Virus record (IMG/VR): IMGVR_UViG_2671181188_000017
Source of the DNA: a virus
Taxonomy: Duplodnaviria > Heunggongvirae > Uroviricota > Caudoviricetes
Direction: 5' to 3' (one strand)
Length of the DNA stretch: 53,578 nucleotides
This document shows positions 9,289-12,565 of this stretch, one piece after another. A model generated the notes under the pieces. It was given only the letters and a program-made list of their open reading frames with translations. It was not told the origin of the DNA and did no database searches. The position numbers were made by a program, and so were the translations under genes. Position 1 is the first letter of the stretch. Every line of letters begins with the position of its first letter.

Positions 9289-9855
9289 TTAAACAGGATA
9301 AAAACCAGAGCTTCCATTCTTATTTAAGTTATGGATTTTATTTGCATCATTAATTTTTATTTGGAACGTCGGACCTTTATTCTCAAGAATTACAATCTGG
9401 AAATTATAGTCCCTTTTGATTAATGCGTGATAAAATGAATCACTGAGACTGACGCTATTAACATCCGATAGAGAACCCCCTCTATCTTTATCAAAGTGCG
9501 TCACTAATGGACTATCAAGCACAACAAATCCAATGAATGGATTCCCTTTTCTTGATAAAAATTCCGCAAAGCAAATGGTAAATATAGCATGCATTACTGC
9601 ACGGGTACCTTTACCAAACATTCCTCGGCGTTTCCCATTGATATTAAAGTCATATGTATCTTCGTCAAATCGCACTTTGTTATCTTTAGAATTTTCAAAA
9701 TTTATATCATTCAAAAAGTCTTGCATCGCTATTTCTATATCATACAAATCAGCTACTGTTAAGGAGTCAAAGTCCTCGGCGGAGTATTTAAGTTCGTCAA
9801 CATCATCTTCTTTATCTTGTAATGAAGATAGAATGCTATGTTTTGTGTGATCCAT
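9289..9855 (-). CDS. Hotspot ORF F: ABC/SMC-type ATPase C-terminal lobe (Walker B-like GFVVLDSP)
   Basis: 188 aa; hydrophobic stretch ending in D (FIGFVVLDSP); start ATG overlaps the ORF E stop as TAATG; AT-rich. Confidence 0.55.
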   Translation of the reverse strand: MDHTKHSILSSLQDKEDDVDELKYSAEDFDSLTVADLYDIEIAMQDFLNDINFENSKDNKVRFDEDTYDFNINGKRRGMFGKGTRAVMHAIFTICFAEFLSRKGNPFIGFVVLDSPLVTHFDKDRGGSLSDVNSVSLSDSFYHALIKRDYNFQIVILENKGPTFQIKINDANKIHNLNKNGSSGFYPV

Positions 9856-10445
9856 TAAAAGATTGTCTTTATATTCATAAAGTGATTCAAGAGATGAATG
9901 TATTGTTTTATATTTTTATCTTCTAACGTCTTAAAATCACTTTTTTCTGATTGATAAATTTCATTAACATCATTTTTTCTTAACATAATTAATTCATGTT
10001 CGCGAACATTAGATCCGATTGATTCAATTAATCCTTTCAGCTGGCTTTTGATTTTCAATTTTTCTGCATTACACGACAAAAAACAATCATCATATGATAT
10101 TTCATTTTCTTTTTTTTGCGGTGTATTACAGAACTCACAATAAATATCTGCAAAATTATTTAAATAGAAATTCGCCTGTGATACAACATCTATTCTTTGT
10201 AGATCTATAAAGTATTGGTCTTTAAGAAGACTAAATCTTTCAATGAGTAATGATAAGTATTTTTCCCTGTCACTGATTGAATATAATTCATCACTTAACT
10301 CTTTTAATAATTGCTTCTTATCATCAAGTGCATCAACAATACCTTTCAATATATCTTTCGATGATTCAATATCTTGCTCTACTTTCTCAAGTTCTCTTGA
10401 AACAATGACTTGATCATATTCAGGATAAATTAATTGCGCTTTCAA
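9855..10445 (-). CDS. Hotspot ORF E: coiled-coil segment with CxxC (zinc-hook-like) motif; probably continuous with ORF D
   Basis: 196 aa, heptad-rich, contains CEFC and CFLSC; has no ATG (track start is TTG); in the same frame as ORF D, separated only by one TAA and 10 sense codons. Confidence 0.4.
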   Translation of the reverse strand: MKAQLIYPEYDQVIVSRELEKVEQDIESSKDILKGIVDALDDKKQLLKELSDELYSISDREKYLSLLIERFSLLKDQYFIDLQRIDVVSQANFYLNNFADIYCEFCNTPQKKENEISYDDCFLSCNAEKLKIKSQLKGLIESIGSNVREHELIMLRKNDVNEIYQSEKSDFKTLEDKNIKQYIHLLNHFMNIKTIF

Positions 10446-10475
10446 TTCCTCATAAATATTTGCAATTTGATTTTT

Positions 10476-11108
10476 TTAAAAATATCTTGCTTTTTTATTT
10501 GGTTTTTCTGCTAAGGAGTTAGTATCATCTCTCTGAGTTAAAAGGAATTTAAATTCAGACTTTCTTTTTGTCTCCTCGCTAGGAATATCAGAAAGAATTA
10601 ACGACTTCTCAGTTAACACTCTTAATTCATCAATACAAAAAAATTCAAAAACATTATTAAGATTAAATTTATGAAGAGTATTACTTAAGTTTGTTCTTAC
10701 TTTAGCCTCTTTGAAATTCAACCTACCATAAAAGTATGATGAAAAACTCTTTTTAGACGAAGCACTTTTGGAAAAAACCATCAACAGATTAGCTTCACTA
10801 ACATTTTCAATGCTCGAATCATATAATCTGTAATGGGCGCTATCCTGAAGAGACCTCTCAATTGTCATTACCCTACCTTGAAAATTAAATTCCAGATAGG
10901 CTAAATCATAACCTTGAGCATGATCGATATCTTTATTTTTTAGTTTTTCACTCCCTAATAAATATCGAATCAAATAATATATGTATGTTTTTCCAGAGTC
11001 AGAACCACCATATAAAATAGTCAATTTAGAACCAAATTCAATTATAGCATCTAATTTATTGAATCCGGTTACCTTTATTTTTCTGAACGTAAAAAAATTG
11101 TCATTCAT
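10476..11108 (-). CDS. Hotspot ORF D: ABC/SMC/Rad50-type ATPase N-terminal lobe (Walker A GGSDSGKT)
   Basis: Track ORF 10476..11135; likely ATG at 11106-11108 (MNDNFF..) overlapping the ORF C stop as ATGAATGA; Walker A LTILYGGSDSGKTYIYYL. Confidence 0.6.
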   Translation of the reverse strand: MNDNFFTFRKIKVTGFNKLDAIIEFGSKLTILYGGSDSGKTYIYYLIRYLLGSEKLKNKDIDHAQGYDLAYLEFNFQGRVMTIERSLQDSAHYRLYDSSIENVSEANLLMVFSKSASSKKSFSSYFYGRLNFKEAKVRTNLSNTLHKFNLNNVFEFFCIDELRVLTEKSLILSDIPSEETKRKSEFKFLLTQRDDTNSLAEKPNKKARYF

Positions 11109-11559
11109 AATTAAATTCCATATCATATTTGCCAATTTTATTTTTTATAATTGATTGCAACTGCTCATCAGGAATATCACTATATAACTTAACCACCAAA
11201 TTTATATTATGCTCCATCTGCGCAACATATTCATTATGTAGAGAATTTGTAAATGCATATGTTTTTTCAGAAGCTTTATATACAAAACCACGATGTGTAT
11301 AAATTTTTGAGGCTAGTTCATAGCCTTGCAACAAAGCCAATGATTCTAAAACAATCTCTCGTTTTAGGGCTAACTGAGCATCTCTACGGGGTATTGGAGG
11401 ATGAAGACTAATCTCTTCAGGTAAAAAATCCTTAAGATTTACTAAAATAAAATCAAAACAAATAAGCCGTTCAAGGCTTAATGAAGAAGGATAAATAGCG
11501 ACGAGCACTTTCGCCATTCGACATGCCACTTCTAAACTTGAATTATAAATTCTAACCAT
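11101..11559 (-). CDS. Hotspot ORF C: hypothetical protein
   Basis: Track ORF 11101..11574; probable ATG (MVRIYNSS..) overlaps the ORF B stop as TAATG; helical, no recognisable motif. Confidence 0.5.
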   Translation of the reverse strand: MVRIYNSSLEVACRMAKVLVAIYPSSLSLERLICFDFILVNLKDFLPEEISLHPPIPRRDAQLALKREIVLESLALLQGYELASKIYTHRGFVYKASEKTYAFTNSLHNEYVAQMEHNINLVVKLYSDIPDEQLQSIIKNKIGKYDMEFNYE

Positions 11560-12176
11560 TATCTCACCGTCCAAATTACTTCACCATCATTAACCAAATG
11601 ATGGCATATTCCTTTTTTATCATTTGCTTCACATATTTTTGATAGTACTGAATGTGCAATTGGTGTCAGAACAGCCTGCTTCAAGACTGCATTACACCTA
11701 ATAAATGCATAATTATGGTCTTCATAAAAGACGGGTTCAATTGAAGATGAAATGTAACATTTCAATGCTTTGAATACATCATCTTTAAATACTTCGCGGA
11801 CAAAAACCTCAAGCGAAGATGCAAAATAAAAATCATTTCTACTATTATTAAAGTGTCGTCTGTATGGATCATCAAGCTCTAAGAAAGAACTATAAGTTTT
11901 ATTTCCATGCTCTGAATAGGCTTGAAGCAGTGCATTAACATATACAGACTCTTTTTTTGAATTGTATGTTGGAATTTCATTTGGAGGGATTCTCACGACA
12001 TACAGCTCGTTAAAGTACTTAAAATAAAGGTGTGTATTTGCAATATCATTTAAAATCAATGATAAGGGTAGAGAGTAAAAAATACTAAAATCAAAATCCT
12101 CAATATATTTTTTTATTTCATCATCTAATGGAATATCAATCTTTTTAGTTATTTTTTTGAAATTGCTGAATCCCAT
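11559..12176 (-). CDS. Hotspot ORF B: hypothetical protein (possibly fused to ORF A by frameshift)
   Basis: 205 aa, AT-rich; 28-nt overlap with ORF A containing an A7 run; no obvious RBS of its own. Confidence 0.5.
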   Translation of the reverse strand: MGFSNFKKITKKIDIPLDDEIKKYIEDFDFSIFYSLPLSLILNDIANTHLYFKYFNELYVVRIPPNEIPTYNSKKESVYVNALLQAYSEHGNKTYSSFLELDDPYRRHFNNSRNDFYFASSLEVFVREVFKDDVFKALKCYISSSIEPVFYEDHNYAFIRCNAVLKQAVLTPIAHSVLSKICEANDKKGICHHLVNDGEVIWTVR

Positions 12177-12565
12177 GAATCAAGGACTGCTTTTTTAAGC
12201 TCGTTTTTATTTTTCAATAAATTAGAAAATGTAGTAGATAAATCATAGGGTGCCACAAAAAAGTACTTCTGAGGGATGGGATAATCACCATTCAGAGTAA
12301 AATAGATAAGTTTTCCAAACTCAACTACAACATCAGAGAACCCTAAACTTTTTTTGTACAGTTTGCATTGATAATTATCCCAAGAATAACCTTCTACGTT
12401 AGGATCCGATTTATATCCAACAACGTCTCTACCTTTATCTCCAGCTCCTCCCAAACGTTCGCTCCACGGGTAATCATCTGATTTACAGACAATAAGCCAA
12501 TCATGGACAAATACCTCCCATTGTTCATCATCCCATGTCAATATTTCCGAAAGTGGTTGAGACAC
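12149..12565 (-). CDS. Hotspot ORF A: small protein with Mrr-cat/PD-(D/E)xK-like nuclease motif, translationally coupled to integrase
   Basis: GTG start at 12563-12565 preceded by AAGGAG (inside the last int codons) with 7-nt spacing, 3 nt after the int stop; motif GGAGDKGRDVVGY...YQCKLY resembles the Mrr catalytic core. Confidence 0.55.
   Translation of the reverse strand: MSQPLSEILTWDDEQWEVFVHDWLIVCKSDDYPWSERLGGAGDKGRDVVGYKSDPNVEGYSWDNYQCKLYKKSLGFSDVVVEFGKLIYFTLNGDYPIPQKYFFVAPYDLSTTFSNLLKNKNELKKAVLDSWDSAISKK

What the first reader, a model, noticed from the sequence alone, without database searches (positions are those of the whole stretch)
9289..12565. AT-rich six-ORF operon in the P4-type hotspot between the Ogr/Delta-like gene and the integrase: candidate uncharacterised anti-phage system
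In P4-like satellites the interval between psu/delta and int is a known hotspot for defence cargo (established knowledge). Here that interval carries a compact minus-strand operon (ORFs A-F) that is visibly far more AT-rich than the flanking DNA and is co-directional with the integrase. ORF A has an Mrr-catalytic-like motif (GGAGDKGRDVVGY..YQCKLY); ORFs D/E/F together look like an SMC/Rad50-type ATPase (Walker A GGSDSGKT, coiled coil with CxxC, Walker B-like GFVVLDSP); ORFs B and C have no motif I recognise. The nearest architectural analogy is an effector plus SMC-like ATPase pair (Lamassu-like), but the gene count and splitting do not match any named system I can assign by eye.
Basis: partly seen in the sequence, partly recalled or inferred. 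Interest (0 to 1): 0.85.

Follow-up and report, generated by a model that had tools for sequence, protein, structure and literature searches.

The report
Broken Lamassu defence operon in O157
The six AT-rich ORFs are the fragments of an ordinary three-gene Lamassu anti-phage system (LmuA-Mrr, LmuC, LmuB) that was broken by two 1-base deletions and one stop codon in the E. coli O157:H7 lineage, so it is a known, decaying system and not a new one.

Summary
Six co-directional minus-strand ORFs (9289-12565), at GC about 0.28-0.34, lie between ogr/delta and the integrase of the P4-like element Sp2 of E. coli O157:H7. They are not six genes and not an uncharacterised system. PADLOC places them collinearly on three Lamassu profiles: A+B on LmuA, C on LmuC, D+E+F on LmuB. 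Intact relatives in Proteus, Pantoea and two unidentified assemblies encode LmuA (335 aa), LmuC (152 aa) and LmuB (606 aa), several of them in the same int-[cargo]-delta-psu-sid slot. Against these, the window differs by a 1-nt deletion in an A-run of lmuA, a TTA-to-TAA stop in lmuB, and a 1-nt deletion in an A-run of lmuB. The deletions are shared with O55:H7. The stop is found only in O157:H7. Other strains add further indels, an IS1203 insertion or a 646-bp deletion, and none reverts. Pfam (CTD6, MC2), conserved motifs and fold matches to solved LmuA and LmuB structures confirm a short type II Lamassu with an Mrr-type nuclease. The O55:H7 allele of this locus was already published as "Lamassu-var" (NAR 2024), with no mention of the frameshifts. 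Verdict: a known family and a known locus, most likely a non-functional remnant. Low interest, apart from correcting that published reading.

The parts
The intact form is 335 aa.
   Evidence: PADLOC LmuA PDLC03852: A covers positions 10-140 (E 9e-41) and B covers 141-333 (E 4e-44). Pfam CTD6 E 8e-30. Adding one base gives a 335-aa ORF collinear with the intact Proteus, Pantoea and L008 LmuA. An AF2 model of a 67%-identical relative (pLDDT 94) has solved LmuA chains as its best PDB matches.
12152..12158 (-). Lesion 1: a 1-nt deletion that leaves an A7 run (TCA AAA AAA TAA). It shifts lmuA out of frame and separates the nuclease domain from CTD6.
   Evidence: Intact relatives read AAT/AAG AAA ATA here, and the window lacks one base. 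The lesion is shared with both O55:H7 genomes.
11101..11559 (-). lmuC, apparently intact (152 aa from ATG 11559, which overlaps the lmuA stop as TAATG).
   Evidence: PADLOC LmuC PDLC03871 E 2.5e-36, full length. Pfam MC2 (PF20288) E 6e-30. Same length as in the intact operons.
D is the N-terminal half-head with Walker A. E is the coiled-coil hairpin with the CxxC hook. F is the end of the coiled coil plus the C-terminal half-head with Walker B.
   Evidence: PADLOC LmuB PDLC03863: D covers 3-199, E covers 231-412 and F covers 428-608 of 610; fused E 2.4e-114. 86% identical to an intact 606-aa Proteus protein. Motifs: Walker A at 34-41, CEFC at 324-327, FVVLDS at 528-533. Architecture from the model and best PDB matches to solved LmuB chains.
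10476..10478 (-). Lesion 2: an in-frame TAA at LmuB codon 211, found only in O157:H7.
   Evidence: O55:H7 and Proteus have TTA (Leu) and L008 has CTG (Leu). Leu211 is invariant in the LmuB alignment.
9913..9917 (-). Lesion 3: a 1-nt deletion in an A-run (A6 to A5) at about LmuB codon 397, inside the descending coiled coil.
   Evidence: DNA alignment with four intact operons. Shared with O55:H7.
12566..12580 (-). Ribosome-binding site of lmuA (AAGGAG, 7 nt before the GTG at 12565). It lies 4 nt after the integrase stop, so the operon is probably transcribed with int or from within it.
   Evidence: Sequence and start contexts. Intact relatives have the same int-lmuA spacing.
9229..9262 (-). Intrinsic-terminator-like hairpin (13 bp stem) just after the lmuB stop, marking the end of the operon.
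   Evidence: Terminator scan.
12569..13801 (-). P4-type tyrosine integrase, one border of the hotspot.
   Evidence: Pfam Arm-DNA-bind_3, Phage_int_M and Phage_integrase; annotation.
8607..8879 (+). Ogr/Delta-like zinc-finger activator, the other border of the hotspot. Psu (8050-8601) and a Sid-like gene (7301-8053) lie beyond it.
   Evidence: Pfam Ogr_Delta E 1e-16 and Psu E 4.8e-42.

Best explanation
The region is a pseudogenised short type II Lamassu (ABC-3C) defence operon, lmuA(Mrr)-lmuC-lmuB. It is carried as cargo in the int/delta-psu hotspot of Sp2, the immobilised P4-like satellite of the E. coli O157:H7/O55:H7 clone.

**How the intact system works** (established for relatives, inferred here). 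Two LmuB, one LmuC and one LmuA form a complex that holds LmuA as an inactive monomer through its C-terminal domain. LmuB senses DNA ends or phage replication intermediates and uses ATP. LmuA is then released, tetramerises through its C-terminal domain, and its nuclease degrades DNA, aborting the infection.

**What is in this window** (shown).
1. A 1-nt deletion cuts LmuA between its nuclease domain and its C-terminal domain.
2. A stop codon cuts LmuB after its N-terminal half-head.
3. A second 1-nt deletion cuts LmuB in the descending coiled coil.

Only lmuC is intact.

**Inferred.** The system no longer works as a Lamassu in O157:H7 and is decaying neutrally. It is retained because the satellite can no longer swap its cargo.
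For: **Identity**
- Collinear full-length PADLOC matches to LmuA, LmuC and LmuB.
- Pfam CTD6 and MC2 of ABC-3C.
- LmuB motifs match the short-Lamassu definition: Gx4GK[ST], hhhhD[S], one CxxC, about 600 aa (criteria from PMC12663957).
- Fold matches to solved LmuA chains (9nxx, 9ny1, 9hqx, 9uxl) and LmuB chains (9uxh, 9hqu, 9hqx, 9ux7, 9nyg).

**Breakage**
- Intact three-gene operons of 335, 152 and 606 aa occur in Proteus, Pantoea and two unidentified assemblies, three of them in the same P4-type slot.
- The window differs from them by exactly two 1-nt gaps plus one TAA.
- All 152 LmuA homologues found are single-chain, apart from the O157 fragments themselves and one other short entry (P0041, 211 aa, not examined).

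**Not an artefact**
- The state is identical in about 300 complete genomes from many platforms, including Sakai and EDL933.

**Decay**
- dN/dS against Proteus is 0.10-0.12. Since the O55/O157 split there are 6 non-synonymous, 1 nonsense and 1 synonymous changes.
- Lineage-specific extra lesions: 9941 deletion, 10636 insertion, 10110 deletion, IS1203 in ORF D, and a 646-bp deletion of ORF D. None reverts.
- ORFs B, E and F lack usable ribosome-binding sites, and E has only a TTG start.
- No intact copy of this allele appears in 5,426 E. coli genomes or in the 5.8-billion-protein search.

**Expectation from relatives**
- In a validated Lamassu-Mrr, an ATPase point mutation, an effector mutation or an lmuC deletion each abolished defence (10.1101/2022.05.11.491447).
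- The LmuA C-terminal domain mediates both docking and tetramerisation (PMC12663957).

**Immobility**
- Sp2 shows no circularisation, replication or packaging, and its helper prophage is defective (PMC2669165).
Against: - A synthetic clone of the O55:H7 allele, which carries lesions 1 and 3 plus its own 9941 deletion but not the stop, was reported to reduce plaque size of T2, T4, T6 and RB69 (PMC11754643). Some residual activity therefore cannot be excluded.
- That effect was weak and seen only at the highest dilutions. By its coordinates the insert ends at the first base of ORF A's start codon, so it lacks lmuA's ribosome-binding site and any upstream promoter. No mutant controls are described in the main text.
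- Lesion 1 sits in A_AAA_AAA followed by a stop codon, a sequence where a -1 slip would restore full-length LmuA exactly. LmuA loss may therefore be leaky.
- Rad50/SMC half-heads can in principle reassemble non-covalently.
- The ORFs have been retained at 99.7% identity or more across the clone, but the clone is young, so this says little.
- I could not test function here.
Confidence: 0.85

Rival explanations
1. A functional split 'Lamassu variant'. The fragments are translated separately, or LmuA is restored by -1 frameshifting at the A-run, and they reassemble into a weakly active complex. On this reading the multi-CDS layout is a working architecture, which is the implicit reading of the Domainator paper.
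For: - Reduced plaque size of T-even phages with the O55:H7 clone (PMC11754643).
- Lesion 1 lies in A_AAA_AAA followed by TAA. A -1 slip gives ...SAISKK|ITKKIDIP..., the same length and register as intact LmuA.
- F starts with an ATG overlapping E's stop (TAATG), which could allow translational coupling.
- lmuC is intact.
Against: - All intact relatives are three genes.
- The breaks are a nonsense codon and homopolymer indels.
- Different sublineages carry additional, different inactivating lesions, including an IS and a 646-bp deletion of the Walker A half-head.
- Substitutions since the O55/O157 split are almost all non-synonymous.
- E has only a TTG start, with GAGG 1-2 nt upstream; B and F have no Shine-Dalgarno sequence.
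- No stimulatory RNA structure lies after the slippery run (z = +1.15).
- O157:H7 has one more break than the tested O55 clone.
- The published phenotype is weak, and the insert lacked lmuA's own ribosome-binding site and promoter.
Confidence: 0.08
2. A phase-variable defence system. The homopolymer tracts act as reversible ON/OFF switches, so the operon is OFF in the sequenced state but ON in a subpopulation.
For: Lesions 1 and 3, and most of the extra strain-specific indels, lie in A/T runs of 5-9 bases. Phase variation by slippage is known for other defence genes (general knowledge).
Against: - Two independent tracts plus a non-reversible TAA would all need to revert.
- None of the ten divergent copies I compared base by base carries an in-frame allele at either tract, and the remaining ~300 complete genomes are at least 99% identical with the same six-ORF annotation. 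I did not inspect all 309 individually.
- The indels seen elsewhere add damage rather than restoring frame.
- Runs of 5-7 bases are short for efficient slippage.
Confidence: 0.02
3. A truly new six-gene anti-phage system that is unrelated to, or only loosely like, Lamassu.
For: The gene count and ORF sizes do not match any catalogued system if each ORF is taken as a gene. ORFs A, E and F have no significant Pfam hit on their own.
Against: - Full-length collinear matches to LmuA, LmuC and LmuB.
- 86% identity to an intact Proteus LmuB.
- Fold matches to solved Lamassu chains.
- RefSeq already names B and C as ABC-3C proteins, and Sakai marks LmuB as a pseudogene.
Confidence: 0.01
4. A sequencing or assembly artefact: homopolymer errors split genes that are intact in the real genome.
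For: Two of the three lesions are homopolymer length changes, the typical long-read or 454 error. Some strain-specific extra indels (for example the five in AR-0428) may well be such errors.
Against: The same three lesions are present in about 300 independent complete assemblies, including Sanger-era Sakai and the re-sequenced EDL933. The two deletions are also present in the two O55:H7 genomes. The third lesion is a substitution.
Confidence: 0.01

Closest known systems
'Lamassu-var' of Johnson et al., Domainator paper (NAR 2024, PMC11754643): the O55:H7 TB182A allele, CP038295 4,116,517-4,120,474
   Same: It is the same locus. My L003 is that record, 99.7% identical to the window over the operon, with the same int/delta-psu slot and the same lmuA and lmuB frameshifts (lesions 1 and 3).
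   Different: - The O55 allele lacks the TAA at codon 211 of lmuB but has its own 1-nt deletion at about 9941.
- The paper describes it as an abundant, previously undescribed variant with '3 to 9 CDSs', and never mentions frameshifts, pseudogenes, LmuA/B or O157.
- Here the multi-CDS layout is shown to be gene breakage.
- Its abundance (259 of 910 hotspots) is best explained by the clonal over-representation of O157:H7 genomes (309 of 5,426 genomes, all at least 99% identical).
Lamassu-Mrr (Millman et al. 2022; validated system from E. coli O150:H5 SE15); short type II Lamassu, also called ABC-3C
   Same: - Three components: LmuA with an N-terminal Mrr-type nuclease and a C-terminal domain, the small LmuC, and the SMC-like LmuB.
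- Same gene order and the same Walker A, Walker B and CxxC features.
   Different: - Not closely related in sequence: no other E. coli copy is detectable by blastn down to about 65-70% identity.
- Here two of the three genes are disrupted, whereas in the validated system every component was needed for defence.
Solved Lamassu complexes: V. cholerae DdmABC / Lamassu Vc-Cap4 (9nxx, 9ny1, 9nyg, 9uxh, 9uxl) and Salmonella LmuACB (9hqu, 9hqx)
   Same: - They are the best structural matches for models of the intact relatives of both LmuA and LmuB.
- The same LmuA1-LmuB2-LmuC1 logic is presumed.
   Different: - Sequence identity is only about 8-14%, and sequence searches against the PDB find nothing for LmuA or LmuC and only weak SMC/Rad50 head matches for LmuB.
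- The effector there is Cap4, not Mrr.
- Vc LmuB has no zinc hook, whereas this one has one CxxC.
Intact orthologous operons in Proteus mirabilis (L005/L006), Pantoea alhagi (L007) and two unidentified assemblies (L008/L009)
   Same: - 89% (Proteus) and 79% (the others) DNA identity over the whole operon.
- Same gene order and overlaps.
- L007, L008 and L009 sit in the same int-[cargo]-ogr/delta-psu-sid slot of a P4-like element next to proBA.
   Different: Those copies have three uninterrupted genes of 335, 152 and 606 aa. The window has 3,277 nt instead of 3,279, plus a stop codon.

Membership tests
Lamassu, short type II (ABC-3C) | LmuB: an SMC/Rad50-like ABC ATPase of about 600 aa with Walker A Gx4GK[ST] | tested here: met
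   Joined D+E+F matches PADLOC LmuB PDLC03863 at positions 3-608 of 610, E 2.4e-114. GGSDSGKT at residues 34-41; repaired length 606 aa. The fold of the 86%-identical relative has solved LmuB chains as best matches.
Lamassu, short type II (ABC-3C) | Short-Lamassu Walker B hhhhD[Q/S/T/E] (PMC12663957) | tested here: met
   FVVLDS at 528-533; L531, D532 and S533 are invariant in 19 homologues.
Lamassu, short type II (ABC-3C) | Short coiled coil with zero, one or two CxxC zinc-hook motifs | tested here: met
   One CxxC (CEFC, 324-327); C324 and C327 are invariant. The model shows helices 233-319 and 339-436 flanking the loop.
Lamassu, short type II (ABC-3C) | LmuC: a small middle component encoded between lmuA and lmuB | tested here: met
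   ORF C: PADLOC LmuC E 2.5e-36; Pfam MC2 PF20288 E 6e-30, 104.5 bits against a cut-off of 26.9.
Lamassu, short type II (ABC-3C) | LmuA: an N-terminal effector domain fused to the Lamassu/ABC-3C C-terminal domain in one polypeptide | tested here: not met
   Both domains are present and collinear (PADLOC LmuA 10-140 and 141-333; CTD6 E 8e-30). However, they are on two ORFs because of a 1-nt deletion at 12152-12158. Homologues are single-chain.
Lamassu, short type II (ABC-3C) | All components encoded as complete genes (a complete system in the PADLOC/DefenseFinder sense) | tested here: not met
   lmuA is frameshifted. lmuB carries a TAA at codon 211 and a frameshift at about codon 397. Sakai annotates ECs_0293 as a pseudogene. 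By descent it is a member; by present state it is a remnant.
Lamassu, short type II (ABC-3C) | Anti-phage (abortive infection) activity that depends on the ATPase, the effector and LmuC | not testable with these tools
   The only evidence is from the literature: a weak plaque-size effect for the O55 allele (PMC11754643), and the requirement for all components in another Lamassu-Mrr.
Lamassu-Mrr subtype | The effector domain is an Mrr-type PD-(D/E)xK nuclease | tested here: met
   - ORF A alone is below threshold (Mrr_cat E 0.2, 12.2 bits against 21).
- 8 of 54 family members reach Mrr_cat at E <= 0.01 (best 1.6e-6).
- D43, D47, Q66 and K68 are nearly invariant and retained in the window (GDKGRD...QCK).
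- After LmuA, the model's next PDB matches are PD-(D/E)xK nucleases: MspJI, FokI cleavage domain, Cap4 and EndoMS.
- The fold data alone do not separate Mrr from Cap4-like nucleases.
P4-like satellite defence hotspot | Variable cargo between the integrase and the delta/psu genes of an element with P4-type core genes | tested here: met
   - The order is int, cargo, Ogr/Delta, Psu, Sid-like, AlpA, primase.
- Relatives keep the same slot.
- Caveat from the literature: its Psu is only about 31% identical to P4 Psu, so this is a divergent branch.
Phase-variable or programmed-frameshift gene | In-frame and out-of-frame alleles coexist in the population, or a slippery site is paired with a stimulatory element | tested here: not met
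   No in-frame allele in any of the copies compared base by base, and the other complete genomes are at least 99% identical with the same ORF annotation. No stable structure lies downstream of the A7 run. A basal -1 slip at A_AAA_AAA remains possible but was not tested.

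The most novel reading that the evidence does not exclude
The broken operon is 'leaky' rather than dead.

- A basal -1 ribosomal or transcriptional slip at the A_AAA_AAA-TAA site (12152-12158) would regenerate full-length LmuA.
- The LmuB pieces would reassemble non-covalently, as split Rad50 heads can.
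- This would give a low-level Lamassu activity that accounts for the weak T-even plaque phenotype reported for the O55:H7 clone.

If so, frameshifted defence genes in immobilised satellites could persist as attenuated, low-toxicity immunity.
Probability: 0.07. Interest if true: 0.5.

Novelty: already known. Interest (0 to 1): 0.2.

Why it matters
As a discovery it matters little. The family (Lamassu/ABC-3C with an Mrr effector) is well characterised, and this locus is already in the literature. Its value lies in correction and annotation.

1. The 'abundant Lamassu variant' reported from P4-like hotspots appears to be a frameshifted ordinary Lamassu. Its abundance reflects how often the O157:H7 clone has been sequenced.
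2. It is a clear, clone-wide example of a pseudogenised defence system in a P4-type hotspot. A 2026 survey reported such pseudogenes to be rare (under 1%). Here it occurs in a satellite that experiments found to be immobile, which fits the idea that cargo decays when it can no longer be swapped.
3. For O157:H7 phage biocontrol or therapy, this Lamassu should probably not be counted among the pathogen's active defences.

Tried and rejected
- **Single-sequence PDB searches** with repaired LmuA, LmuB and LmuC found nothing. Profile searches gave only weak SMC/Rad50 head hits for LmuB (E 0.002) and noise for LmuA. The link to solved Lamassu structures needed fold comparison.
- **NCBIfam** has no model for any of the pieces.
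- **Pfam Mrr_cat** on ORF A or on repaired LmuA alone is not significant. The Mrr call rests on family-wide hits, conserved residues and fold.
- **A divergent intact copy in E. coli** was sought with sensitive blastn. None exists in 5,426 complete genomes.
- **Revertant or ON alleles** were sought among the most divergent O157 copies. I found only additional damage.
- **A frameshift-stimulating RNA structure** after the A7 run was not found.
- **P0024**, a 96%-identical hit that might have been a closer intact relative, turned out to be a deletion allele of the same clone.
- **The Domainator paper's supplements** are not held, so I could not check the construct map or the plaque images.
- **A 2026 O157 preprint** that matched 'Lamassu' in the search has no such text in the held version.
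- **Substitution rate, cargo versus flanks, O55 versus O157:** 8 in 3,277 nt against 2 in about 2,760 nt. This is suggestive but too few events to count as evidence.

Full report
**1. What is there**

The window is E. coli O157:H7. Positions 9200-12700 are 100% identical to Sakai (NC_002695.2 311857-315357) and EDL933. Sakai annotates the surrounding element as 'prophage Sp2, P4-like phage'.

The block has GC 0.27-0.34, against about 0.5 in the flanks. Profile searches confirm the borders and the rest of the element:
- Ogr/Delta at 8607-8879
- Psu at 8050-8601
- a Sid-like Psu-family protein at 7301-8053
- AlpA at 6107-6367
- a tyrosine integrase at 12569-13801

The quoted motifs are all present.

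**2. Six ORFs, three genes**

PADLOC places the ORFs collinearly on three Lamassu profiles:

| ORF(s) | Profile | Positions covered | E-value |
|---|---|---|---|
| A | LmuA PDLC03852 | 10-140 of 336 | 9e-41 |
| B | LmuA PDLC03852 | 141-333 of 336 | 4e-44 |
| C | LmuC | full length | 2.5e-36 |
| D, E, F | LmuB PDLC03863 | 3-199, 231-412, 428-608 of 610 | 2.4e-114 when joined |

Pfam identifies B as CTD6 and C as middle component 2 of the 'ABC-three component' systems, the other name for type II Lamassu (E 8e-30 and 6e-30). D and E are in the same frame with a single TAA between them.

**3. Intact relatives and the exact lesions**

A search with the joined LmuB found uninterrupted 606-aa proteins in Proteus mirabilis (86% identity) and Pantoea alhagi (73%), and more distant ones in many enterobacteria. 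Their loci encode LmuA (335 aa), LmuC (152 aa) and LmuB (606 aa). In Pantoea and in two unidentified assemblies the operon sits in the same int-[cargo]-ogr/delta-psu-sid slot of a P4-like element next to proBA.

A DNA alignment of the operons (3,277 nt in the window against 3,279 nt) shows that the window differs in structure by exactly three things:
- **Lesion 1:** a missing base in an A-run of lmuA (12152-12158).
- **Lesion 3:** a missing base in an A-run of lmuB (9913-9917).
- **Lesion 2:** TAA in place of a Leu codon at lmuB codon 211 (10476-10478).

Adding back the two bases regenerates a 335-aa LmuA and a 606-codon LmuB. All 152 LmuA homologues found are single-chain, apart from the O157 fragments themselves and one other short entry that I did not examine.

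**4. Real mutations that are accumulating**

The six-ORF state is found in 309 of 5,426 complete E. coli genomes. All are at least 99% identical, and all belong to the O157:H7/O55:H7 clone. These include Sanger-era and re-sequenced reference strains, so sequencing error is excluded.

The two O55:H7 genomes share lesions 1 and 3 but have TTA (Leu) at codon 211. The stop therefore arose later, in the O157:H7 line. The O55 genomes have instead their own deletion at about 9941, and one has a further insertion at 10636.

Other strains carry:
- a deletion at 10110 (at least five strains);
- private frameshifts in A or B;
- an IS1203 insertion in D (three strains);
- in one read set, a 646-bp deletion that removes D.

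None restores a frame. Some of the private homopolymer indels may be long-read errors, but the pattern does not depend on them.

Against the intact Proteus copy, dN/dS is 0.10-0.12 for all three genes. Since the O55/O157 split the substitutions are 6 non-synonymous, 1 nonsense and 1 synonymous. The numbers are small, but this is what relaxed constraint predicts.

**5. Family membership**

Haudiquet et al. 2025 (PMC12663957) define short Lamassus by four features:
- an LmuB of about 600 aa with Walker A Gx4GK[ST] and Walker B hhhhD[Q/S/T/E];
- zero to two CxxC hooks;
- an LmuC;
- an LmuA with a variable N-terminal effector and a conserved C-terminal domain.

The repaired LmuB has GGSDSGKT (34-41), CEFC (324-327) and FVVLDS (528-533), all at invariant alignment columns.

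An AlphaFold model of a 67%-identical intact LmuA (pLDDT 94) has the solved LmuA chains of the Salmonella and Vibrio Lamassu complexes as its best PDB matches. PD-(D/E)xK nucleases follow. A model of the Proteus LmuB (pLDDT 74) has solved LmuB chains as its best matches, then Rad50 and SMC.

The Mrr assignment of the effector is weak for ORF A alone (Pfam E 0.2). It is supported by Mrr_cat hits in 8 of 54 family members and by the nearly invariant D, D and QxK residues, which the window retains.

By descent, then, this is a short type II Lamassu with an Mrr-type effector, a subtype validated experimentally by Millman et al. 2022. In its present state it fails the 'complete genes' criterion.

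**6. How it works, and why it probably does not work here**

In the solved systems:
- an LmuA1-LmuB2-LmuC1 complex sequesters monomeric LmuA through its C-terminal domain;
- LmuB senses DNA ends or phage replication origins, with ATP;
- released LmuA tetramerises through its C-terminal domain, which assembles the nuclease site.

This mechanism is inferred for this subtype by homology.

In the window:
- Lesion 1 separates the nuclease domain from the domain needed for both docking and tetramerisation.
- Lesion 2 leaves the Walker A half-head alone.
- Lesion 3 cuts the descending coiled coil (for the architecture).

lmuA keeps a strong AAGGAG ribosome-binding site, and lmuC and lmuB keep their overlapping starts. 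The new ORFs B, E and F have no usable ribosome-binding site, and E has only a TTG start. In a validated Lamassu-Mrr, loss of any one component abolished defence.

I therefore rate the O157:H7 copy as non-functional, with confidence of about 0.85.

**7. The published 'Lamassu-var'**

The Domainator paper (PMC11754643) found this cluster to be the most frequent cargo in its P4-type hotspot survey: 259 of 910 hotspots, '3 to 9 CDSs'. It called the cluster a previously undescribed variant related to type II Lamassu, and cloned CP038295 4,116,517-4,120,474. That is exactly the O55:H7 TB182A allele (my L003). It reported reduced plaque size for T2, T4, T6 and RB69 at the highest dilutions. The text never mentions frameshifts, pseudogenes, LmuA/B or O157.

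Three points follow from my analysis:
- The variable CDS count is the signature of differing sets of frameshifts.
- The abundance reflects the clonal over-representation of O157:H7.
- By its coordinates the insert runs from the delta start codon to the first base of ORF A's start codon, so it lacks lmuA's ribosome-binding site and any promoter inside int.

The weak phenotype is thus poor evidence for function, but I cannot exclude residual activity.

One concrete route to leakiness is that lesion 1 lies in A_AAA_AAA followed by TAA. There, a -1 slip would yield a full-length LmuA in exactly the native register. No stimulatory structure follows the site, so this would be basal at best.

**8. 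Context**

A 2026 survey (PMC13586616) reports that fewer than 1% of the pseudogenes it detected in P4 elements had similarity to defence genes, and argues that cargo is swapped before it decays. This locus is a clone-wide counter-example.

Sp2 was shown not to circularise, replicate or be packaged, and its P2-like helper is defective (PMC2669165). It is reasonable to infer that an immobilised satellite can no longer exchange cargo, so the cargo erodes in place.

**9. Verdict**

- Both the family and the locus are already known.
- The only new element is that the published 'variant' is a pseudogenised standard Lamassu-Mrr.

Interest is low.

Noticed in passing
window 1576-2532 (+), within the AT-rich trough at about 1000-2750: A 318-aa ORF (Sakai ECs_0304) lies at the primase-side end of Sp2, in a second low-GC island (GC 0.28-0.35). 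It has no hit in Pfam, PADLOC or PHROGs. It may be a second cargo slot holding an orphan gene.
   Followed up: partly
L003 (CP038295 4115610-4122109), compared with window 8607-12565: The published 'Lamassu-var' insert (4,116,517-4,120,474) starts at the delta ATG and ends at the first base of ORF A's start codon. It therefore excludes lmuA's Shine-Dalgarno sequence (window 12572-12577) and any promoter inside int, and it includes the delta activator gene.
   Followed up: partly
L018 1527-2740 (O157:H7 M1300706002; also 6535WT and 6535NalR), equivalent to about window 10650-10700: An IS1203 (IS3 family) copy is inserted in ORF D (the lmuB N-terminal half-head) in three strains.
   Followed up: partly
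L017 (Logan SRR7251010), equivalent to window 10479-11125: A 646-bp deletion removes ORF D and fuses lmuC to ORF E. The 25-nt overlap of the two BLAST alignments at the junction suggests recombination between short similar sequences. I did not inspect the repeat directly.
   Followed up: partly
window about 13958: Homology between the O157:H7 and O55:H7 copies ends abruptly here. This marks the integrase-side boundary of Sp2. In O157:H7 the lambda-like remnant Sp1 follows, whereas O55:H7 has unrelated DNA. The only tRNA in the window (tRNA-Thr CGT, 52135-52210) is about 38 kb away, so Sp2 and Sp1 appear to be stacked at one site.
   Followed up: no
window 7301-8053 (+): The gene annotated as the capsid-size determinant (Sid-like; PGAP calls it 'septation initiation protein') hits the Pfam Psu family (E 7e-10), as does its neighbour psu. 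The two adjacent genes therefore look like paralogues in this divergent P4-like branch.
   Followed up: no
window 14306-14671 (+) and 14713-15465 (-): Just beyond the Sp2 boundary lie a truncated IS3-family transposase fragment (integrase core only) and an AT-rich AraC-family regulator.
   Followed up: no
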